Assembly (NCBI GenBank): GCA_010015805.1
Contig: ML978121.1
Location: 434,001 to 498,000 of the forward strand
DNA from: Rhizodiscina lignyota
Taxonomy: Eukaryota
Length of the DNA stretch: 64,000 nucleotides
Direction of reading: 5' to 3'
The notes below the pieces were generated by a model. That model saw only the letters and a list, made by a program, of their open reading frames with translations, searched no databases and had not been told where the DNA came from. Positions 19,643 through 25,548 of the stretch are shown here, piece by piece; positions within the stretch are counted from its first letter, which is position 1; each line of letters starts with the position of its first letter. Position numbers and translations under genes: made by a program.

Positions 19643-20390
19643 CGTGAGGCTTCGAAGCTAAGTATGAAAAGAAGAAGAATGTGCTAAGTACTATAGCTTC
19701 CTAGCCTGTTGACACCTCTCTGATGCGGAGCGAGAACGATACAGCGACGAAAATTTATGGCCTGCCCGTTTTGACACACGTGAGCGTAGATACCAATTGA
19801 GAAGTCTGCGGTGCTGTCATGTAAAACTCAGGAAGACCATCGAGCCACAAATTTTATAACTTACGTGAAATTCGTTGGGGAAAAAATAGTGCGGATTCTC
19901 CCAAGAAGGTGCAAAACTTTCTGATGTTCAGTTGGATTCCGAGGTGGGTGCTTCATACGAAGTGTGGTTGAGGAAGTCGAATTTAGACCTTCTGTTGTGT
20001 ATATTACAAAAGGAGATGTGTCGAAGGTGGTCCGCAGCTGCCAGAAGAGTACTAAGGAATACCTATCCCGTCGCATTCCTCGGCGGGCGTCCGGCAAAGT
20101 TTGGTGAAAGCCATTTTCTTCATCACTATCATTGAGAATAACACAGGATTCAAATTTTACAAATCCCATGATTGCATCATTCCTAAGAGCAGAAAATTTG
20201 GTTTACTCCATATAAACGACTCGTTCGGCCAGAAAAAGATCTGTGACCGACGCATCCCTCGGAATAGTTACGTCGACATGCTCTCAAACACTCGAACACA
20301 ACTATTGCTTCAACATTGGATTTAAAGCTCCAAACACTCAATTACATCCACTAGTATCCTTCCCCTGTCATAATCCCGACCATTATCGCA

Positions 20391-21539
20391 ATGGAACGTG
20401 ATATATCTCCACCTCCCACAAAACGCCGCCGGATCTCAAACGGTTCTGATGTGAAAGTGGCAAAGAGCAAGAGCAAGGAAACCGATCAACCAAACCCAGA
20501 CACATCGCAATCTCTCCGAATTTTCACCTGGAACATCAACGGAATCATACCCTTCCTCCAAACCCCAATCACAAAGTTTTTCTCCCCGTCTACATCATCC
20601 ACCACCACCGCCTCCAAAGCCCCAGCGTCTCTCCGCACATTCCTCCACAGACATCATTTCCCCCAACTCCTCTTCCTGCAAGAAGTCAAAATCCCCGCCT
20701 CAGACCTCAAGACCCAGCGCGCCGTCACTGCCGCCGTCGACGACCGCTTGGACGCCGACGACGAGGAGCATGGACCAGAGTACGTCGTGCACTTCACGCT
20801 TCCCAGGGACAAATTCAACGCCAAGGGCTTCGGCGGGAGAGTGTACGGCGTCGCGAGCATCATCCGAAAAGACTTCTACGATCAGCATGTCACTAGCGTG
20901 CGGGACGTCGAATGGGATCTGGAAGGACGCGTGAGCGTCGTCGAGTTGAAGGGCAAGCTGGCGATCTGGAACATCTACGCCGTTAATGGGACGGATGCGC
21001 CGTACCGCGATCCGCAGACTGGACAGGCGAAGGGTACTCGACATGATCGGAAACTCGCGTTCCACAGACTGCTCGTTGACGAATGCAAGAAGATGGAAGG
21101 GGATGGCTGGACGCACGTGCTAGCAGGAGACTTCAACGTCGCGCCGGCGCGGATCGATGGGCATCCGAATCTGCGGACGTGGCCGGCGCAGCATGTCGTC
21201 AACCGCGCGGACTTCAATTCGAGGTTTCTTGATGGGAGGAATGGAGTAGGGTTGCGGGCAGTAGATGTGTGGAGGGCGTTGAAGAAGGATGAGAGAAAGT
21301 ATACGTATTACCCAAGAGGACGGGAATGGGGAAGTAGCTGTGATCGGGTGGATCTAATATTGGCATCGCGGAAATTATGGGAGGATGGAGATGTGCTTGA
21401 TGCCGGGATCCTGGACAGTCCGCAAGAAAGAGGGCCGAGTGATCATGTGCCATTGTGGGTCAGAGTGCGGTACGAGTGCGAGAAAGAAATTCAGGATCGT
21501 GATAGGGAAGAGAATGAAGGGAAGCGAACAGAGAGCTAA
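20391..21539 (+). CDS. Exonuclease III / AP-endonuclease family (EEP, DNase I-like) nuclease
   Basis: TWNING, LQEVK, NIYAVNG, LAGDFN, DRVDLIL and SDHVP motifs; N-terminal NLS-like PTKRRR. Confidence 0.92.
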   Translation: MERDISPPPTKRRRISNGSDVKVAKSKSKETDQPNPDTSQSLRIFTWNINGIIPFLQTPITKFFSPSTSSTTTASKAPASLRTFLHRHHFPQLLFLQEVKIPASDLKTQRAVTAAVDDRLDADDEEHGPEYVVHFTLPRDKFNAKGFGGRVYGVASIIRKDFYDQHVTSVRDVEWDLEGRVSVVELKGKLAIWNIYAVNGTDAPYRDPQTGQAKGTRHDRKLAFHRLLVDECKKMEGDGWTHVLAGDFNVAPARIDGHPNLRTWPAQHVVNRADFNSRFLDGRNGVGLRAVDVWRALKKDERKYTYYPRGREWGSSCDRVDLILASRKLWEDGDVLDAGILDSPQERGPSDHVPLWVRVRYECEKEIQDRDREENEGKRTES

Positions 21540-22008: not shown

Positions 22009-22767
22009 CTAAAGCCTAGAACCGTGAACAACTTTGTAGTCAACAGCCAGCTCCTGGCCATTATCATTGATGACCAACACTCTAACACTGCCACGGCCAT
22101 TGTCGAAGCTCTCGGTGAGCCTAGCGAGCAAGTCGCTCTGGTCAATGATTGGCAGAGCCTGCTTGACATCGCCAGTCTCGGTCATGGCGACAACGTAGCC
22201 ATCATCACGGATATCCAAAACGCGGTACTGCTTGAAGACGGGGCCAAGCATGTTCTGGACAATGACACTGGGGGCCGGGTTGCTGATGAAAGAGCTCTCC
22301 TCATGCAGCTGCTTGGTGAAGAGGTCGACACCCAGGTAGCGGTGCTGGCCAGTCTGGCTGGAGGTGGTGATGCGGATGACCTGGCAAGGACGGCCCTGCA
22401 AGATGAGCAGGTCACCGATGCGGATGTGGTGGCAGGGGATGGTGATCGTGTTAGGAGGAGCCATCTTGCGAGATTGAGAGACGCTCACAGAAGACTGGAA
22501 GCGAGAAGGAGTAGGTTCGAAGCGGGAAGGGGAAGGCTCGTAGCGGGAAGGAGAGGGCTCGAAGCGAGAAGGAGCTGGGGCAGCGGATGGAACTTGGATT
22601 TCCTTCTCACGGATGACTACGTCCTCACGCTCGATGCGCTCTGGGCGTTCGTGATGGTCGTGGTGGTGGTGGCGAGGTCCGTGGATGGGGTGGAGGATAT
22701 GTTCGGCGGCCCTGTGCAGACCGTGGCGGAAAGAATGATAATGTCCGTCTTCGTCGTAATATCCCAT
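22009..22767 (-). CDS. hexA: Woronin body major protein HexA/HEX-1 (AUG-initiated form starting MGYYDEDG; second in-frame AUG at 22462-22464)
   Basis: TITIPCHHIRIGDLLILQGRPCQVIRI...YLGVDLFTKQLHEESS eIF5A-like core; C-terminal PTS1 SRL. Confidence 0.97.
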   Translation of the reverse strand: MGYYDEDGHYHSFRHGLHRAAEHILHPIHGPRHHHHDHHERPERIEREDVVIREKEIQVPSAAPAPSRFEPSPSRYEPSPSRFEPTPSRFQSSVSVSQSRKMAPPNTITIPCHHIRIGDLLILQGRPCQVIRITTSSQTGQHRYLGVDLFTKQLHEESSFISNPAPSVIVQNMLGPVFKQYRVLDIRDDGYVVAMTETGDVKQALPIIDQSDLLARLTESFDNGRGSVRVLVINDNGQELAVDYKVVHGSRL

Positions 22768-23939
22768 ATCACGCTTGTGCTTGCGCCTAGGTTCTTCAAC
22801 CGTGGTCCGAGTTTCTTCTACTCGGATGTCCCGCGAACCGTTGGTGCGTGGAGCGGTATCTTGACGGAAGTCGACGGTGGTTTTACCGTAACCTCTGCCG
22901 CCTTCGAACTCGGCAGCGAAGGTGGAACCGGTGCGGCGGCGGAAGTCGCGCTCGGTGGTGTCGATGGCAGATCCGGCGAACTGGGATCCGGCCTGAGTTC
23001 CGGCGTACTGAGTAGCCGGGGTGTGGACGGTGTCGAAGTTGCGGTCGTAGGTCTGCTCGCGTTCAACTGTAGACCTCTGCTCGCGACCGTAAGACTTGTC
23101 AGGAACGTCGATCTGAGCGTCGACGTAACGGGAGAAGGGTGCTTGGTAGCTACATAGACAATTGCACGTCAGTGACGCGTTCAAAGCGTGAAGACAAGAA
23201 AAAAAATTCTCGTGGAAGAACACGTCAGGACGGGAAGGAAGGGAGGTAAGCTGTTTTGGCGTTGTTGCCGCGCCAACGCAGACGCCACCCGTGCGCTAGC
23301 GTGTGACTGATCTGCGGCTCAGCAGAAAAGGGGGGAATTGATGTCTCAGCGGCCGGCTCGCTTCCGGCACGGTGCAATTGGGCGAAACTGAAGGGATGAC
23401 TTACCTCTTTTGCCGGGGTACCTCCTGTGGCTCTACGATCTCGACGCGAGGACGGTGTTCACGCTCGCGTCGTTCTTCGCGAGGACGATAGTCGCGTTCG
23501 CGTTCGTAGATGCGTGTTTCTTCCTCGACGCGGGTGGCTGGGCGACGTTCACGGTAGCGGTCCTCTTCGTAGACTTGGACGTCTTCTTCTTCGTGGCGGC
23601 GGTCTCGACGGCTTGGAAGACTTGCGGAAACCGACGTATATTTTGTCTCCTCAAGCCCTTCCCGTCCGACGCGTGAAGTCTGACCTTCTACCTTGACTTG
23701 GGTTGTCTCCTCCTCTTCGACCGATCTCCAGGTCGAGGGGAATGGGCTTGGCGGAATGGGCAGACGGGCGTCTGGAAGGGGGATGGTCAGCCTTTACGTG
23801 TCGCGAAATCGAGTAGCCGGTGTATCCGTAAACACTGAGCGTGCTCTCAGCGGACAGCTCTCGCAATGGCGAAGTGTCGCGTCGAGAGCTCGCAAAACAA
23901 ACTCAGCACGCGAATAGGGGTCGACTTACCAAAGTCCAG
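22009..23939 (-). CDS. hexA: Predicted long HexA isoform (about 505 aa) from CUG at 23937-23939; exons 23939-23930, 23771-23405, 23149-22009
   Basis: Canonical GTAAGT donors at 23929 and 23404 and acceptors at 23772 and 23150 give a stop-free frame LDFDARLPIP...SYQAPF...MGYY. There is an in-frame TAA at 23985-23987 and no AUG upstream. Confidence 0.6.
22498..22572 (-). repeat. Coding tandem repeat, 21-nt unit x ~3.6 (PSRFEPS-type) in hexA
   Basis: Units start at 22498, 22519, 22540 and 22561 and encode PSRFEPSPSRYEPSPSRFEPTPSRF. Confidence 0.85.
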
Positions 23940-25548
23940 GTTGACTGGAGTCGCGGCGTCCTTTCTTGAATGCCTTTCGAACCGTTACAGGAACAATTCG
24001 AAAGGAAGACAAGAAAGAACTTCTTGCTCCTTTGGTGAGAAAGGGGACAAGAGGAACTTGGGTTTCTTAAAGCGTGGCAGTGGCCAGCTTTTGAAGCGTG
24101 ATGTGCAGAAGCTCGGTGAAGCTCGATGCAACGTGAAGGATTGCAATTGGAAGTGAGTTGAAAGAGGGCAGGTGAGAGGTGAGAAATCAAGCAAGCGGGG
24201 GACGGATTGTGGAGCCTTTTGGCGCTGGCAGGAAACGAGGCTGGGGGGTGAAGGAGAGACAAAACATGGGCACTCAGCAGCTCCCTTAAGTTTGTTTACG
24301 CGAGCCGCGCCGCCCTCATCGGGCCTAGCGCCGAGCTGCCCCGGTCGGCTTCACGTGTGCATGAGCGCCGACTGCTGCCACGGAAACGCGCTCGCACGTC
24401 TTCCCTGCGCTCTCGAGTTCATGTGGCATTCAGCATCTCTTTGCAATGTGATTTCATTTCTTTGCCGTGTAATCTCCCGCTCAGAGCTCCCGCTTGCGTT
24501 TTCAGAACGTATCGGTGCGTCGACGATGCTGTTTGCCAACGCTCCACCACCGCCCTCCACGCCTCGCCGACGCGGACATCCCAGTGGCTCGCACGTTCCC
24601 GTTGGTCGTGGTCCAATATGACTGGACGTCTTTCCAATGCCGCCTGCAGTCGTGCCCCATCGCCGCGCAGGTGGATGGGCCTTCCTCAGCTGAAGTGTCA
24701 GCGAGCTTTGGCACTGTTCTGCGGAGCTCTACCAGCCTCTTCGTCGCTGGTGCAGCTGCAATTGGAGAGGCAGGGATGCGAGCTTCTGCACGCCATGCAC
24801 CAGCTGCAGATTCGTGCAGATTCGTCCAGGGAAGCTCCCCCAGCCTGACGACTTTGCAGGCTGCGAAGAGGCCGCGCAAGACTCTGTACAACGCGTTTTG
24901 AAATGCTGTAAGAATCAATTCTGGAATGGTCTCGAGCTTATTTCTCTGGGCACGGCTTTTGCGTTCGTGCTTCATGGAGTTGTGGCTGGGGCCGCCTTTA
25001 TGCACGCCGCAGCTACCACTTTTGCAAGAGCACGTTCTGTGCAAGATCGTCCTCGACGAACATTATGGTTGTCCAGCCTCTCACAGAAAGATGGCAGTCT
25101 TGGTGATCTAACTCCTGGTTTTCTTGTGGAGCCTTCCTCTCGGCCCAAACGCATCGCTGCCCTACGGTTTGAGCAAATGAGCAGCCTCCATATACTAGTG
25201 AAGTCGTGCAACAAATTTCCAACCATATTCACGAGAGAGATCACTTCTTAAACGTGGCTACGTAAAGAGTCGATGGCCTTGACAAGCCATCTCAGTTTTT
25301 TGAATGTCTCTTTGTATCAGCGAAGCTACGTAGGACTGGATATCTCAATGCTAAGTTCTACTAACAGTTCCACAGTGCTCATGACTGTGACATAAATTTT
25401 TAGGTGCTCATGCTCTTCGTCGTCCATGCTACGTCACGGTCATAGTCCATTCACGCGTTCCATAACTCCTCAAACTCCTTCCAGTCTGCGAAGACGACGA
25501 CCATAGGCATCACAGGCTTGTATAGAGTATCACAGCCAGCTGTCCCCC

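What the first reader, a model, noticed from the sequence alone, without database searches (positions are those of the whole stretch)
22768..23987. hexA carries a 253-codon AUG-free N-terminal extension: candidate CUG-initiated long Woronin-body isoform
Seen: splicing introns 23929-23772 and 23404-23150 gives a stop-free frame of 759 nt running into the MGYY start. It is closed upstream by an in-frame TAA (23985-23987). I found no AUG in any frame in these exons or in the leader up to 24265 (~1.08 kb of predicted mRNA). An in-frame CUG sits in optimal fungal context (CAAC-CUG-G, 23937-23939). Established: HexA forms the peroxisome-derived septal plug; near-cognate initiation and leaky scanning occur in filamentous fungi; from memory, annotated long HexA models contain a similar NLDFDAR.PIP segment. 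Inference: one mRNA makes a ~505-aa CUG isoform with an R/E-rich disordered arm, plus the 252-aa and ~151-aa AUG isoforms by leaky scanning. This could tune Woronin-body assembly or tethering.
Basis: partly seen in the sequence, partly recalled or inferred. Interest (0 to 1): 0.8.

Follow-up and report, generated by a model that had tools for sequence, protein, structure and literature searches.

The report
CUG-started long Woronin-body protein isoform
The gene for the protein that plugs fungal cell-to-cell pores carries a conserved 253-codon front extension without any AUG, most likely started at an invariant CUG codon, which would explain why this protein's annotated length differs so much among fungi.

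Summary
On the minus strand, two canonical introns join three exons into a frame that is open for 253 codons before the MGYY start. That frame is closed upstream by TAA. It lies in 1,084 nt of predicted mRNA with no ATG in any frame.

I fetched 80 related loci from metagenomes, forming 35 sequence clusters. By protein similarity they include Dothideomycete-, Penicillium- and Helotiales-type genes. The Leu codon of the xLDF(D/E)A(R/K) motif is CTG in 80 of 80, always with A at -3 and G at +4. Other Leu codons in the same genes are CTG only 14% of the time. In several lineages an in-frame stop lies 3-4 codons upstream of the CTG.

In 20 cluster-representative transcripts the extension holds 0 ATG against 57.6 expected. 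Annotated homologues in five classes share the motif but have unrelated or missing starts.

Two further results emerged. A conserved roughly 63-nt hairpin ends 18-20 nt upstream of the CUG. Separately, a Dothideomycete-specific second ATG-free stretch leads to a third start.

Translation itself is not shown, because no RNA or ribosome data exist for this organism. I found no publication describing this.

The parts
23940..24264 (-). ATG-free 5' leader upstream of the CUG. The transcription start was not determined.
   Evidence: No ATG in any frame. Orthologous transcripts have leaders of 82-426 nt. In 9 genomic cluster representatives the nearest upstream ATG is 368-476 nt from the CTG.
23958..24020 (-). 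Conserved extended stem-loop in the leader. It has an 11-bp outer helix, a 4x4 internal loop, a 14-bp inner helix and a 5-nt loop. Its 3' end lies 18 nt before the CUG.
   Evidence: The 111-nt region folds at -41.1 kcal/mol, z -4.47, with 0 of 200 shuffles as stable. The consensus structure on 36 sequences has 15 pairs. 96% of cells are paired, against 33-66% in slid controls. No Rfam match.
23985..23987 (-). In-frame TAA that closes the frame 15 codons upstream of the CUG. It lies within the 3' strand of the window's inner helix, in the stretch that is the loop of the conserved consensus structure.
   Evidence: Its position is not conserved: orthologues have the stop 3 to 54 codons upstream, and one locus shows none within its contig.
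23937..23939 (-). Proposed CUG initiation codon, with context AAC-CUG-G.
   Evidence: CTG in 80 of 80 related loci, all with A at -3 and G at +4. Other Leu codons in the same genes are CTG in 59 of 409 cases.
23930..23939 (-). Coding end of exon A (L/M-D-F plus the first base of D).
23772..23929 (-). Intron 1 (GTAAGT...CAG).
   Evidence: The spliced product matches the contiguous NLDFDARVPIP of orthologous transcripts.
23405..23771 (-). Exon B: conserved N-terminal motif and R/E-rich region of the extension.
   Evidence: No Pfam family.
23150..23404 (-). Intron 2 (GTAAGT...TAG). It holds the only ATG (23155) in 1.5 kb.
22768..23149 (-). Exon C, extension part up to the MGYY codon.
   Evidence: No Pfam family.
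22765..22767 (-). First AUG of the mRNA (MGYYDEDG...), the start of the 252-aa form. Context GAT-ATG-G, with G at -3.
22465..22764 (-). Second ATG-free stretch, between AUG1 and AUG2.
   Evidence: 0 ATG against 1.6 expected in the window. 0 against 13.6 expected in 10 Dothideomycete-type transcripts.
22462..22464 (-). Second in-frame AUG (MAPPNTITIPCHH), the candidate start of a 151-aa core-only form. Context AAG-ATG-G, with A at -3.
22033..22452 (-). Hex1 core: the two eIF5A-like domains.
   Evidence: Pfam PF21485 (E 1.2e-07) and PF01287 (E 5.7e-09), both above their curated cut-offs.
22009..22020 (-). C-terminal SRL (peroxisomal targeting signal type 1) and the stop codon.
   Evidence: Translation. 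SRL as the PTS1 of Hex1 is stated in PMC7762394 (passages).

Best explanation
hexA of this Dothideomycete is a leaky-scanning gene that makes three proteins from one mRNA.

The mRNA has an AUG-free leader with a stable conserved hairpin. About 18 nt after that hairpin, a fraction of scanning ribosomes start at CUG 23939-23937, which has A at -3 and G at +4. By established knowledge of near-cognate initiation this start uses initiator Met-tRNA. The product is a 505-aa form (M/L)DFDARLPIP...

The remaining ribosomes scan on through 759 nt that contain no AUG in any frame. They start at the first AUG (MGYY, G at -3) and make the known 252-aa Hex1. In Dothideomycetes some ribosomes leak again, across a further 300 ATG-free nt, to a second AUG in strong context. 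That start gives a 151-aa core-only form.

All three forms share the self-assembling eIF5A-like core and the C-terminal SRL signal, so all should enter peroxisomes and Woronin bodies.

The 253-aa arm is predicted to be disordered and is rich in R and E. It carries two conserved short motifs: the N-terminal DFDARVPIPFSVFPSSYRSDA and LDxTERxYRxRT. I infer that the arm sits on the surface of the Hex1 assembly as a sub-stoichiometric binding, tethering or size-limiting arm.

Shown here: the sequence anatomy and its conservation. Inferred: that the CUG is used, the ratio of the isoforms, and the function of the arm.
For: 1. Anatomy in the window.

2. The CTG is invariant: 80 of 80 loci in 35 clusters. 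Other Leu codons in 20 cluster-representative transcripts are CTG in 59 of 409 cases. Conserved Leu columns of the Hex1 core use 2-4 different codons.

3. A at -3 and G at +4 are found in all 80, although the preceding residue varies among N, K and I.

4. An in-frame stop lies only 3-4 codons upstream in L051, L060, L061, L062, L064, L065, L066 and L075. It lies 6-7 codons upstream in L034, L044, L045 and L055. D2, F3, A5, V7 and P8 are invariant residues in the 20-sequence protein alignment. The start must therefore lie in a window of a few codons that holds no other near-cognate codon in the lineages with the closest stops.

5. ATG depletion in the 20 cluster representatives: the extension has 0 against 57.6 expected in 15,412 nt, and the leaders have 2 against 21.3 in 4,548 nt. 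The Hex1 part after MGYY has 4-13 ATGs each.

6. 32 loci carry an uninterrupted CTG-to-stop frame with MGYY and a PTS1, on contigs of 1.5-2.6 kb. These lack the intron that the matching genomic loci L007 and L008 have, so they are spliced mRNAs.

7. Median dN/dS is 0.42 for the extension and 0.13 for the core.

8. Of 360 listed annotated homologues, 244 carry the motif (34, 110 and 100 of 120). Their parts upstream of the motif are unrelated to each other, and 30 of the 244 have no Met. Some source-flagged 'partial' models begin at KVANLDF, AVNLDF, IVNLDF or exactly at LDFEAR.

9. Third start: in 10 of 10 Dothideomycete-type transcripts the next ATG after MGYY is an in-frame Met 4-12 residues before the core, after 237-423 ATG-free nt. 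That is 0 ATG against 13.6 expected.
Against: - There is no expression or translation evidence for this organism. The only public run that holds the stretch is DNA.
- dS is saturated (medians 1.2-1.5), so the dN/dS values are rough. Much of the arm is poorly conserved low-complexity sequence.
- Nucleotides around the CTG are conserved in general, and the 35 clusters are related by descent. CTG invariance is therefore not 35 independent observations.
- Passages of PMC7762394 say that antibodies showed two Hex1 isoforms in other species. That paper attributes the 'hypervariable N-terminal extensions' to faulty automatic annotation. From recollection, published Hex1 bands are about 19-25 kDa, and I know of no report of a 50-60 kDa form.
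- Several ORF calls on short orthologous contigs run from non-homologous, possibly intron-2-derived sequence into exon C (P0019, P0025, P0040 and others). Intron-retaining or internally started transcripts may therefore also feed the short forms.
- Metatranscriptome contigs may be incomplete at their 5' ends.
Confidence: 0.78

Rival explanations
1. The extension is translated, but from an AUG supplied by an alternative upstream exon or splice form that the window and the contigs do not show.
For: 241 of the 360 listed homologues are gene models that have a Met upstream of the motif (214 of the 244 with the motif). The transcription start of this gene is unknown. ATGs exist upstream of 24264.
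Against: The Met-bearing N-termini are unrelated to each other. The most common first-8 string occurs at most 3 times in 120, and one model even fuses a protein kinase (P0375). Of the 20 cluster-representative spliced transcripts, 19 have no ATG in a leader of up to 337 nt; the longest ATG-free leader among all 32 transcripts is 426 nt. The one exception has only tiny upstream ORFs. In-frame stops 3-7 codons before the CTG lie in the mature mRNA.
Confidence: 0.03
2. The 'extension' is an untranslated 5' leader. Its open frame and its lack of AUG reflect RNA-level constraints only, such as a long scanning-permissive leader or a localisation element.
For: Nucleotide conservation in and around the leader is strong, and the leader holds a conserved hairpin. 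Synonymous sites in the first 60 nt after the CTG are unusually conserved. AUG depletion alone is also expected of a long leader. No long Hex1 protein has been reported in the papers I could read.
Against: The frame stays open through many indels in 32 transcripts whose types match three classes. The window has 0 in-frame stops in 253 codons against 5.43 expected. Replacements are conservative at the amino-acid level (D/E, R/K, F/Y in the motif). Residue motifs are invariant while their codons vary (Ala uses GCC, GCT, GCA and GCG). dN/dS is below 1.
Confidence: 0.07
3. The long form is made, but it starts at another non-AUG codon: an upstream AAG or AGG, or the downstream AUC/AUU of the PIP motif.
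For: In the window, AGG and AAG codons lie in frame between the TAA and the CTG. The Ile codon of PIP is ATC or ATT in all 20 transcripts.
Against: Where a stop lies 3 codons upstream (L062, L075), only GTC GTC AAC precede the CTG. The residues D2, F3, A5, V7 and P8, upstream of the Ile, are invariant as amino acids. The Ile codon has C at -3 and C at +4. From recollection of the abstract of Wei et al. 2013 (paper not held), CUG is the best and AUC/AUU the worst near-cognate start in Neurospora.
Confidence: 0.05
4. The CUG form exists but is a minor by-product. The short forms come mainly from separate transcripts that start inside intron 2 or retain it, not from leaky scanning.
For: ORF calls on short orthologous contigs read from non-homologous, possibly intron-2-derived sequence into exon C. 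From recollection, multiple transcription starts and alternative splicing were reported for hex1 in Trichoderma and Magnaporthe. Alternative splicing is stated in PMC7762394 (passages).
Against: If short forms did not depend on scanning through the extension, nothing would keep 15,412 nt of extension free of ATG in all frames (0 against 57.6 expected).
Confidence: 0.15

Closest known systems
Near-cognate-initiated N-terminal extensions of CPC1 (cpc-1) in Neurospora crassa and other Pezizomycotina (Ivanov et al. 2017, PMC5487733; abstract and passages read)
   Same: [quoted passage not shown] It occurs in the same fungal subphylum.
   Different: cpc-1 has two AUG upstream ORFs and several candidate near-cognate codons. 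Here the leader is AUG-free, a single CTG is invariant, and a stop lies just upstream in several lineages. That paper's main text does not mention hex-1 or Woronin (0 occurrences). Its supplements could not be opened.
Known Hex1/HexA isoforms from alternative splicing of the intron after MGYYDD (PMC7762394, passages)
   Same: Several Hex1 proteoforms from one gene that differ at the N-terminus and share the core and the PTS1.
   Different: Those forms differ by about 20 residues, arise by splicing and both start at MGYY. Here the difference is 253 residues and arises at initiation. This window has no intron after MGYY.
[quoted passage not shown] 2020; only the title was seen, in the reference list of PMC11842775)
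   Same: A fungal gene that uses a non-AUG start to make an alternative isoform of a peroxisome-related protein.
   Different: Going by its title, in that case the non-AUG start creates the targeting difference. Here every form keeps the same C-terminal PTS1. I did not read the paper.
Structure-assisted initiation at non-AUG codons: the downstream hairpin of Kozak (recalled) and START (PMC11165317; search listing and start of abstract only)
   Same: A stable RNA structure close to a weak start codon.
   Different: Those structures lie downstream of the start. Here no supported structure lies downstream (-5 kcal/mol, 0 covarying pairs). The conserved hairpin lies upstream and ends 17-27 nt before the CUG.
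CUG-initiated long isoforms in animals, such as c-Myc, FGF2 and PTEN-L (recalled; no call)
   Same: A CUG in good context upstream of the main AUG gives a longer proteoform by leaky scanning.
   Different: Different genes and kingdom. None to my knowledge has a 760-nt extension that is AUG-free in all frames together with a third start.

Membership tests
Hex1/HexA, Woronin body major protein | Two eIF5A-like domains (Pfam PF21485 and PF01287) | tested here: met
   E 1.2e-07 and 5.7e-09, both above the curated cut-offs.
Hex1/HexA, Woronin body major protein | C-terminal PTS1 tripeptide (SRL) and conserved MGYYD N-terminus of the short form | tested here: met
   ...VVHGSRL* and MGYYDEDG. These features are named in PMC7762394 (passages).
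Hex1/HexA, Woronin body major protein | Self-assembly into a hexagonal crystal that plugs the septal pore | not testable with these tools
   Only inferred, from 53-61% full-length or 62-90% partial-length identity to annotated homologues in the 120 best hits.
Near-cognate (non-AUG) initiated N-terminally extended proteoform with leaky scanning | In-frame extension under coding constraint, bounded upstream by a stop, with no in-frame AUG | tested here: met
Near-cognate (non-AUG) initiated N-terminally extended proteoform with leaky scanning | Conserved near-cognate codon in favourable context | tested here: met
   CTG with A at -3 and G at +4 in 80 of 80 loci and in the window. Background CTG use is 14.4%.
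Near-cognate (non-AUG) initiated N-terminally extended proteoform with leaky scanning | No AUG in any frame between the near-cognate codon and the main AUG | tested here: met
   0 against 57.6 expected in the 20 cluster representatives. 0 in the window.
Near-cognate (non-AUG) initiated N-terminally extended proteoform with leaky scanning | Direct evidence of initiation and of the protein (initiation profiling, N-terminal peptide, mutants) | not testable with these tools
   No RNA run for this organism. No paper found.
Downstream-structure-assisted non-AUG initiation (Kozak hairpin, START) | Stable conserved structure about 14-20 nt downstream of the start codon | tested here: not met
   The consensus fold of +1 to +84 in 20 transcripts is -5.07 kcal/mol with no pair changed on both sides.
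Described RNA families (Rfam 15) for the leader hairpin | Match to a curated covariance model | tested here: not met
   0 matches at E up to 1 in window 23700-24400.

The most novel reading that the evidence does not exclude
The invariant CUG and the conserved roughly 63-nt hairpin at a near-fixed distance upstream form one cis-element of a kind not yet described. Once the scanning complex has passed it, the hairpin refolds at the mRNA exit channel exactly when the CUG reaches the P site. It then acts as a backstop that raises initiation at the weak codon, or a bound protein tunes this effect. In this way it sets the ratio of long to short Hex1. The long form's disordered arm then caps or tethers the Hex1 crystal. 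If so, isoform stoichiometry written into the leader would control Woronin-body size or anchoring across Pezizomycotina.
Probability: 0.15. Interest if true: 0.85.

Novelty: new member of a known kind. Interest (0 to 1): 0.72.

Why it matters
Hex1 has been studied for 25 years as a protein of about 19-25 kDa (recollection). Meanwhile, databases hold hundreds of 400-600-aa models whose length variation has been called 'intriguing' (PMC7559983) or put down to misannotation (PMC7762394).

A single invariant CUG start would resolve that puzzle. It would give one correct N-terminus for the long form in at least five classes of Pezizomycotina, among them well-studied moulds and pathogens. It would also add a conserved disordered arm with two short motifs to the parts list of the Woronin body.

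The case is unusually clean for studying near-cognate initiation. There is one codon, in some lineages a stop lies three codons upstream, the downstream sequence is AUG-free, and a structured element sits at fixed spacing. The system is directly testable with existing Neurospora or Aspergillus tools.

Tried and rejected
- **RNA evidence for this organism.** No RNA holder is listed. The one run found (X1) is a DNA contig identical to the window with no joints.
- **Own genome.** Not held.
- **Earlier findings of this scan.** None by words, sequence or place.
- **Supplements of PMC5487733.** Closed, so I could not check whether hex-1 is listed there.
- **Papers not held.** Wei et al. 2013 (PMC3611022) and Tey et al. 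2005 (PMC1142413) are not held. From recollection of its abstract, the first reports 'examples of highly conserved near-cognate codons' in Neurospora leaders, so it may bear on priority.
- **Downstream hairpin.** Not supported.
- **Rfam match for the leader.** None.
- **Pfam on the extension.** None, either in the window's two exon pieces or in L010.
- **ESM Atlas on the extension.** No usable hit.
- **HMMER of the extension against 1.84 billion representatives.** 68 hits at E up to 0.001. Of the 12 that I scanned with Pfam, 2 carry the Hex1 domains (one of them fused to a kinase model) and 10 carry no family. I found no sign that the arm occurs in another protein family. The other 56 were not scanned.
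- **Structure prediction of a long orthologue (L013, 20-row alignment).** Mean pLDDT 54.7 and pTM 0.26. The arm scores below 50 almost throughout, so there is no fold to search with.
- **Second copy of the 11-nt TTCTTGTCTTC motif in intron 2 (23200-23190).** It is not found downstream of the CTG in other genomic loci, so it was dropped as probably chance.
- **Scripts.** Three scripts stopped early on a motif that some sequences lack. One search is the complete run.
Full report
**The observation.** The gene lies on the minus strand.
- The Hex1 part runs from the MGYY ATG at 22767-22765 to ...HGSRL and the stop at 22011-22009, with no intron. It carries both eIF5A-like Pfam domains.
- Splicing gives one frame that is open for 253 codons from CTG 23939-23937.
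- That frame is closed 15 codons further upstream by TAA 23987-23985.
- The 1,084 nt from 24264 to the MGYY ATG hold no ATG in any frame.
- Against 2000 dinucleotide shuffles, 3.1% have no ATG, and 0.3% have no in-frame stop in the 253 codons.
- The genomic ATG-free run of 1,112 nt is the longest on either strand of the whole window. The next longest is 467 nt.

**What annotated relatives show.**
- The best 120 relatives of the exon-C-to-stop protein are Dothideomycetes. They come from 1,176 proteins with E up to 0.001 among 3,366 candidates, and the best full-length hit is 61% identical.
- 12 of the 120 models start at MGYY.
- 34 of the 120 contain xLD(F/Y)(D/E)AR followed by VPIPFSVFPSSYRSDA.
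- The sequences in front of that motif are unrelated to each other.
- 9 of the 34 have no Met. 10 of the 120 are flagged 'partial' by their source, several beginning at RHSR(K/R)xAATP(V/A)NLDF.
- Other-frame translations of the window's leader reappear in different frames in three models (KKFFLVFLSN in P0005 and P0097, QEVLSCLPFEL in P0010). The leader is therefore conserved as nucleotides, not as protein.

**The DNA test.**
- An alignment of the N-terminal parts (A1) was used to scan metagenome contigs. 446 stretches matched the pattern, 134 were relatives, and the best 80 were kept.
- 73 of the 80 have the contiguous motif, and the Leu codon is CTG in all 73.
- The remaining 7 are R-to-K variants or have an intron after AR. 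All 7 also have CTG.
- The 80 loci fall into 52 distinct sequences and 35 clusters, at 93% identity over positions -60 to +21.
- Position -3 is A and +4 is G in every one. The preceding codon varies: AAT, AAC, AAA, AAG and ATC.
- As a control, in 20 cluster-representative transcripts the other Leu codons are CTG in 59 of 409 cases (14.4%). Ten conserved Leu columns of the core each use two to four codons.
- In L062 and L075 an in-frame stop lies 3 codons upstream of the CTG. In L051, L060, L061, L064, L065 and L066 it lies 4 codons upstream. In L034, L044, L045 and L055 it lies 6-7 codons upstream.
- D2, F3, A5, V7 and P8 are invariant amino acids in the 20-sequence protein alignment.
- Translation of the conserved peptide must therefore begin within a few codons. 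In the lineages with the closest stops, CTG is the only near-cognate codon in that span.

**AUG depletion and coding constraint.**
- 32 loci carry an uninterrupted frame from the CTG to a stop that includes MGYY and a PTS1.
- They sit on contigs of about 1.5-2.6 kb. The 99%-identical pair of types L001 and L007 differs by one intron (480 against 659 nt matched). These loci are therefore spliced mRNAs.
- In the 20 cluster representatives, the extension holds 0 ATG in 15,412 nt against 57.6 expected from dinucleotide shuffles.
- The leaders hold 2 ATGs against 21.3 expected in 4,548 nt. Both are in L061, where they form tiny upstream ORFs.
- The coding part after MGYY holds 4-13 ATGs per gene.
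- In 9 genomic cluster representatives the nearest ATG upstream of the CTG is 368-476 nt away. Further upstream the density is 13-28 per kb.
- Median pairwise dN/dS (NG86, with saturated dS) is 0.42 for the extension, 0.38 for the MGYY-to-core linker and 0.13 for the core.
- Conservation is concentrated in three places: the first 60 or so residues, the motif LDxTERxYRxRT, and the segment before MGYY.

**Breadth.**
- One divergent transcript type (L060) is 76% identical to a Cadophora protein. It has full-coverage relatives in Helotiales, Sordariales, Xylariales, Hypocreales and lichen-forming Lecanoromycetes. 110 of these 120 carry the motif.
- Another type (L059) is 90% identical to a Penicillium protein. 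It has full-coverage relatives across Aspergillus, Talaromyces and Onygenales. 100 of these 120 carry the motif.
- In both sets the upstream parts again differ from model to model. Source-flagged partial models begin at KVANLDF, AVNLDF, IVNLDF or exactly at LDFEAR (P0179).
- At the protein level the extension is therefore present in five classes.
- The CTG itself is verified at the DNA level only for the 80 loci, whose types match three of those classes.

**A third start.**
- In 10 of 10 Dothideomycete-type representatives, the first ATG after MGYY in any frame is an in-frame Met 4-12 residues before TIPCHH. It follows 237-423 ATG-free nt (0 against 13.6 expected) and is mostly in the context CGCAAG-ATG-G.
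- In those transcripts the MGYY ATG has G at -3 in 7 of the 10; two have A and one T.
- In 10 of 10 Eurotiomycete- or Leotiomycete-type representatives, MGYY has A at -3. The next ATG follows after 13-115 nt and is out of frame in 8.
- The window shows the Dothideomycete pattern: GAT-ATG-G, then 300 ATG-free nt, then AAG-ATG-G at 22464.

**A conserved hairpin.**
- The leader folds into an extended stem-loop at 24020-23958. The 111-nt region has an energy of -41.1 kcal/mol and a z-score of -4.47, and 0 of 200 shuffles fold as well.
- On 36 sequences the consensus structure has 15 pairs.
- 96.0% of 525 cells are paired, against 92.3 +/- 0.6 in shuffles (0 of 500 reach it) and 33-66% when partners are slid.
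- The covariation score is 0.277 against 0.204 (0 of 500 reach it).
- The number of pairs with changes on both sides, 5 against 3.7, is reached by 37 of 500 shuffles, so it is not striking on its own. The tool warns that related sequences can beat shuffles without any structure.
- Loop length differs between lineages (about 18-20 nt against 6-7 nt) while the stems are kept.
- The distance from the helix end to the CTG is 19-20 nt in 27 of 36 rows and ranges from 17 to 27. One row, L055, has no recognisable hairpin.
- There is no Rfam match.
- No supported structure lies downstream of the CUG.

**The arm.**
- The arm has no Pfam family.
- It contains 42 R and 36 E in 253 residues.
- In an AlphaFold model of an orthologue it scores pLDDT below 50 almost throughout, apart from one short helix at the TER motif.
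- I found no evidence that it occurs outside hex1.

**Literature.**
- PMC7559983 (passages) reports that 460 GenBank Hex1 proteins cluster at 470-534 and 405-469 aa and finds this unexplained.
- PMC7762394 (passages) ascribes the extensions to inaccurate annotation.
- No held paper combines 'woronin' with 'near-cognate', or 'woronin' with 'CUG' and 'start codon'. None combines 'Woronin body major protein' with 'ribosome profiling', and none contains the motif peptides.
- The only held paper with Woronin, HexA and non-AUG has 'non-AUG' solely in its reference list.
- The closest described case is cpc-1 (PMC5487733). Its main text does not mention hex-1.
- Wei et al. 2013 and the supplements of PMC5487733 could not be read. 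I therefore cannot exclude an earlier listing.

**Mechanism and limits.**
- The best reading is leaky scanning on one mRNA: CUG gives 505 aa, AUG1 gives 252 aa, and in this class AUG2 gives 151 aa. All forms share the core and the PTS1.
- The sequence anatomy and its conservation are shown. Use of the CUG, the isoform ratio, import and any function of the arm are inferred.
- The role of the hairpin is open. It could be a backstop for the scanning complex, a protein-binding site or a localisation element.
- No RNA, ribosome or protein data exist here for this organism. The published blots known to me show only small forms.

Noticed in passing
window 23958-24020 (-), and the same place in 34 of 35 cluster representatives: A conserved extended stem-loop in the hex1 leader, at near-fixed spacing (19-20 nt in 27 of 36 rows) upstream of the CUG. 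It has no Rfam match.
   Followed up: yes
L001, L010, L013 and 17 other transcripts, positions +1 to +60 after the CTG (alignment A3): Synonymous sites in the first 60 or so coding nt are almost invariant across classes (for example TTCAGTGTCTTCCCGTC). This hints at an RNA-level constraint on top of the protein one. The window's own sequence diverges here (PSPFPSTW in place of FSVFPSSY).
   Followed up: partly
L007/L008 3001-3659; L071/L072; window 23772-23929: Intron 1 is not fixed. It is absent in the L007-type genomes (NLDFDARVPIP is contiguous in genomic contigs), lies after the AR codons in L071 and L072, and lies inside the D codon in the window.
   Followed up: partly
L061 and L065, about 200 nt upstream of the CTG: These are the only leaders with ATGs. 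They form tiny upstream ORFs (ATG TCT GCA followed by a stop) near the 5' end of the contig.
   Followed up: no
P0375 (767 aa): A gene model that fuses a protein-kinase domain to the Hex1 extension and core. It is probably a gene-finder artefact that borrows the neighbour's ATG.
   Followed up: partly
window 23190-23200 and 24005-24015 (-): The 11-nt word TTCTTGTCTTC of the hairpin's 5' arm recurs in intron 2. The second copy is not found at that place in other genomic loci, so it is probably chance.
   Followed up: yes
window 20355-21539 (+): A 394-codon open frame next to hexA on the other strand. From recollection only, its motifs look like an endonuclease/exonuclease/phosphatase-type nuclease. 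No search was run.
   Followed up: no
P0019, P0025, P0034, P0037, P0040, P0087, P0096 and others: ORF calls on short contigs of relatives run from non-homologous, possibly intron-2-derived sequence straight into exon C. This suggests transcripts that retain intron 2 or start inside it. Their DNA could not be fetched.
   Followed up: no
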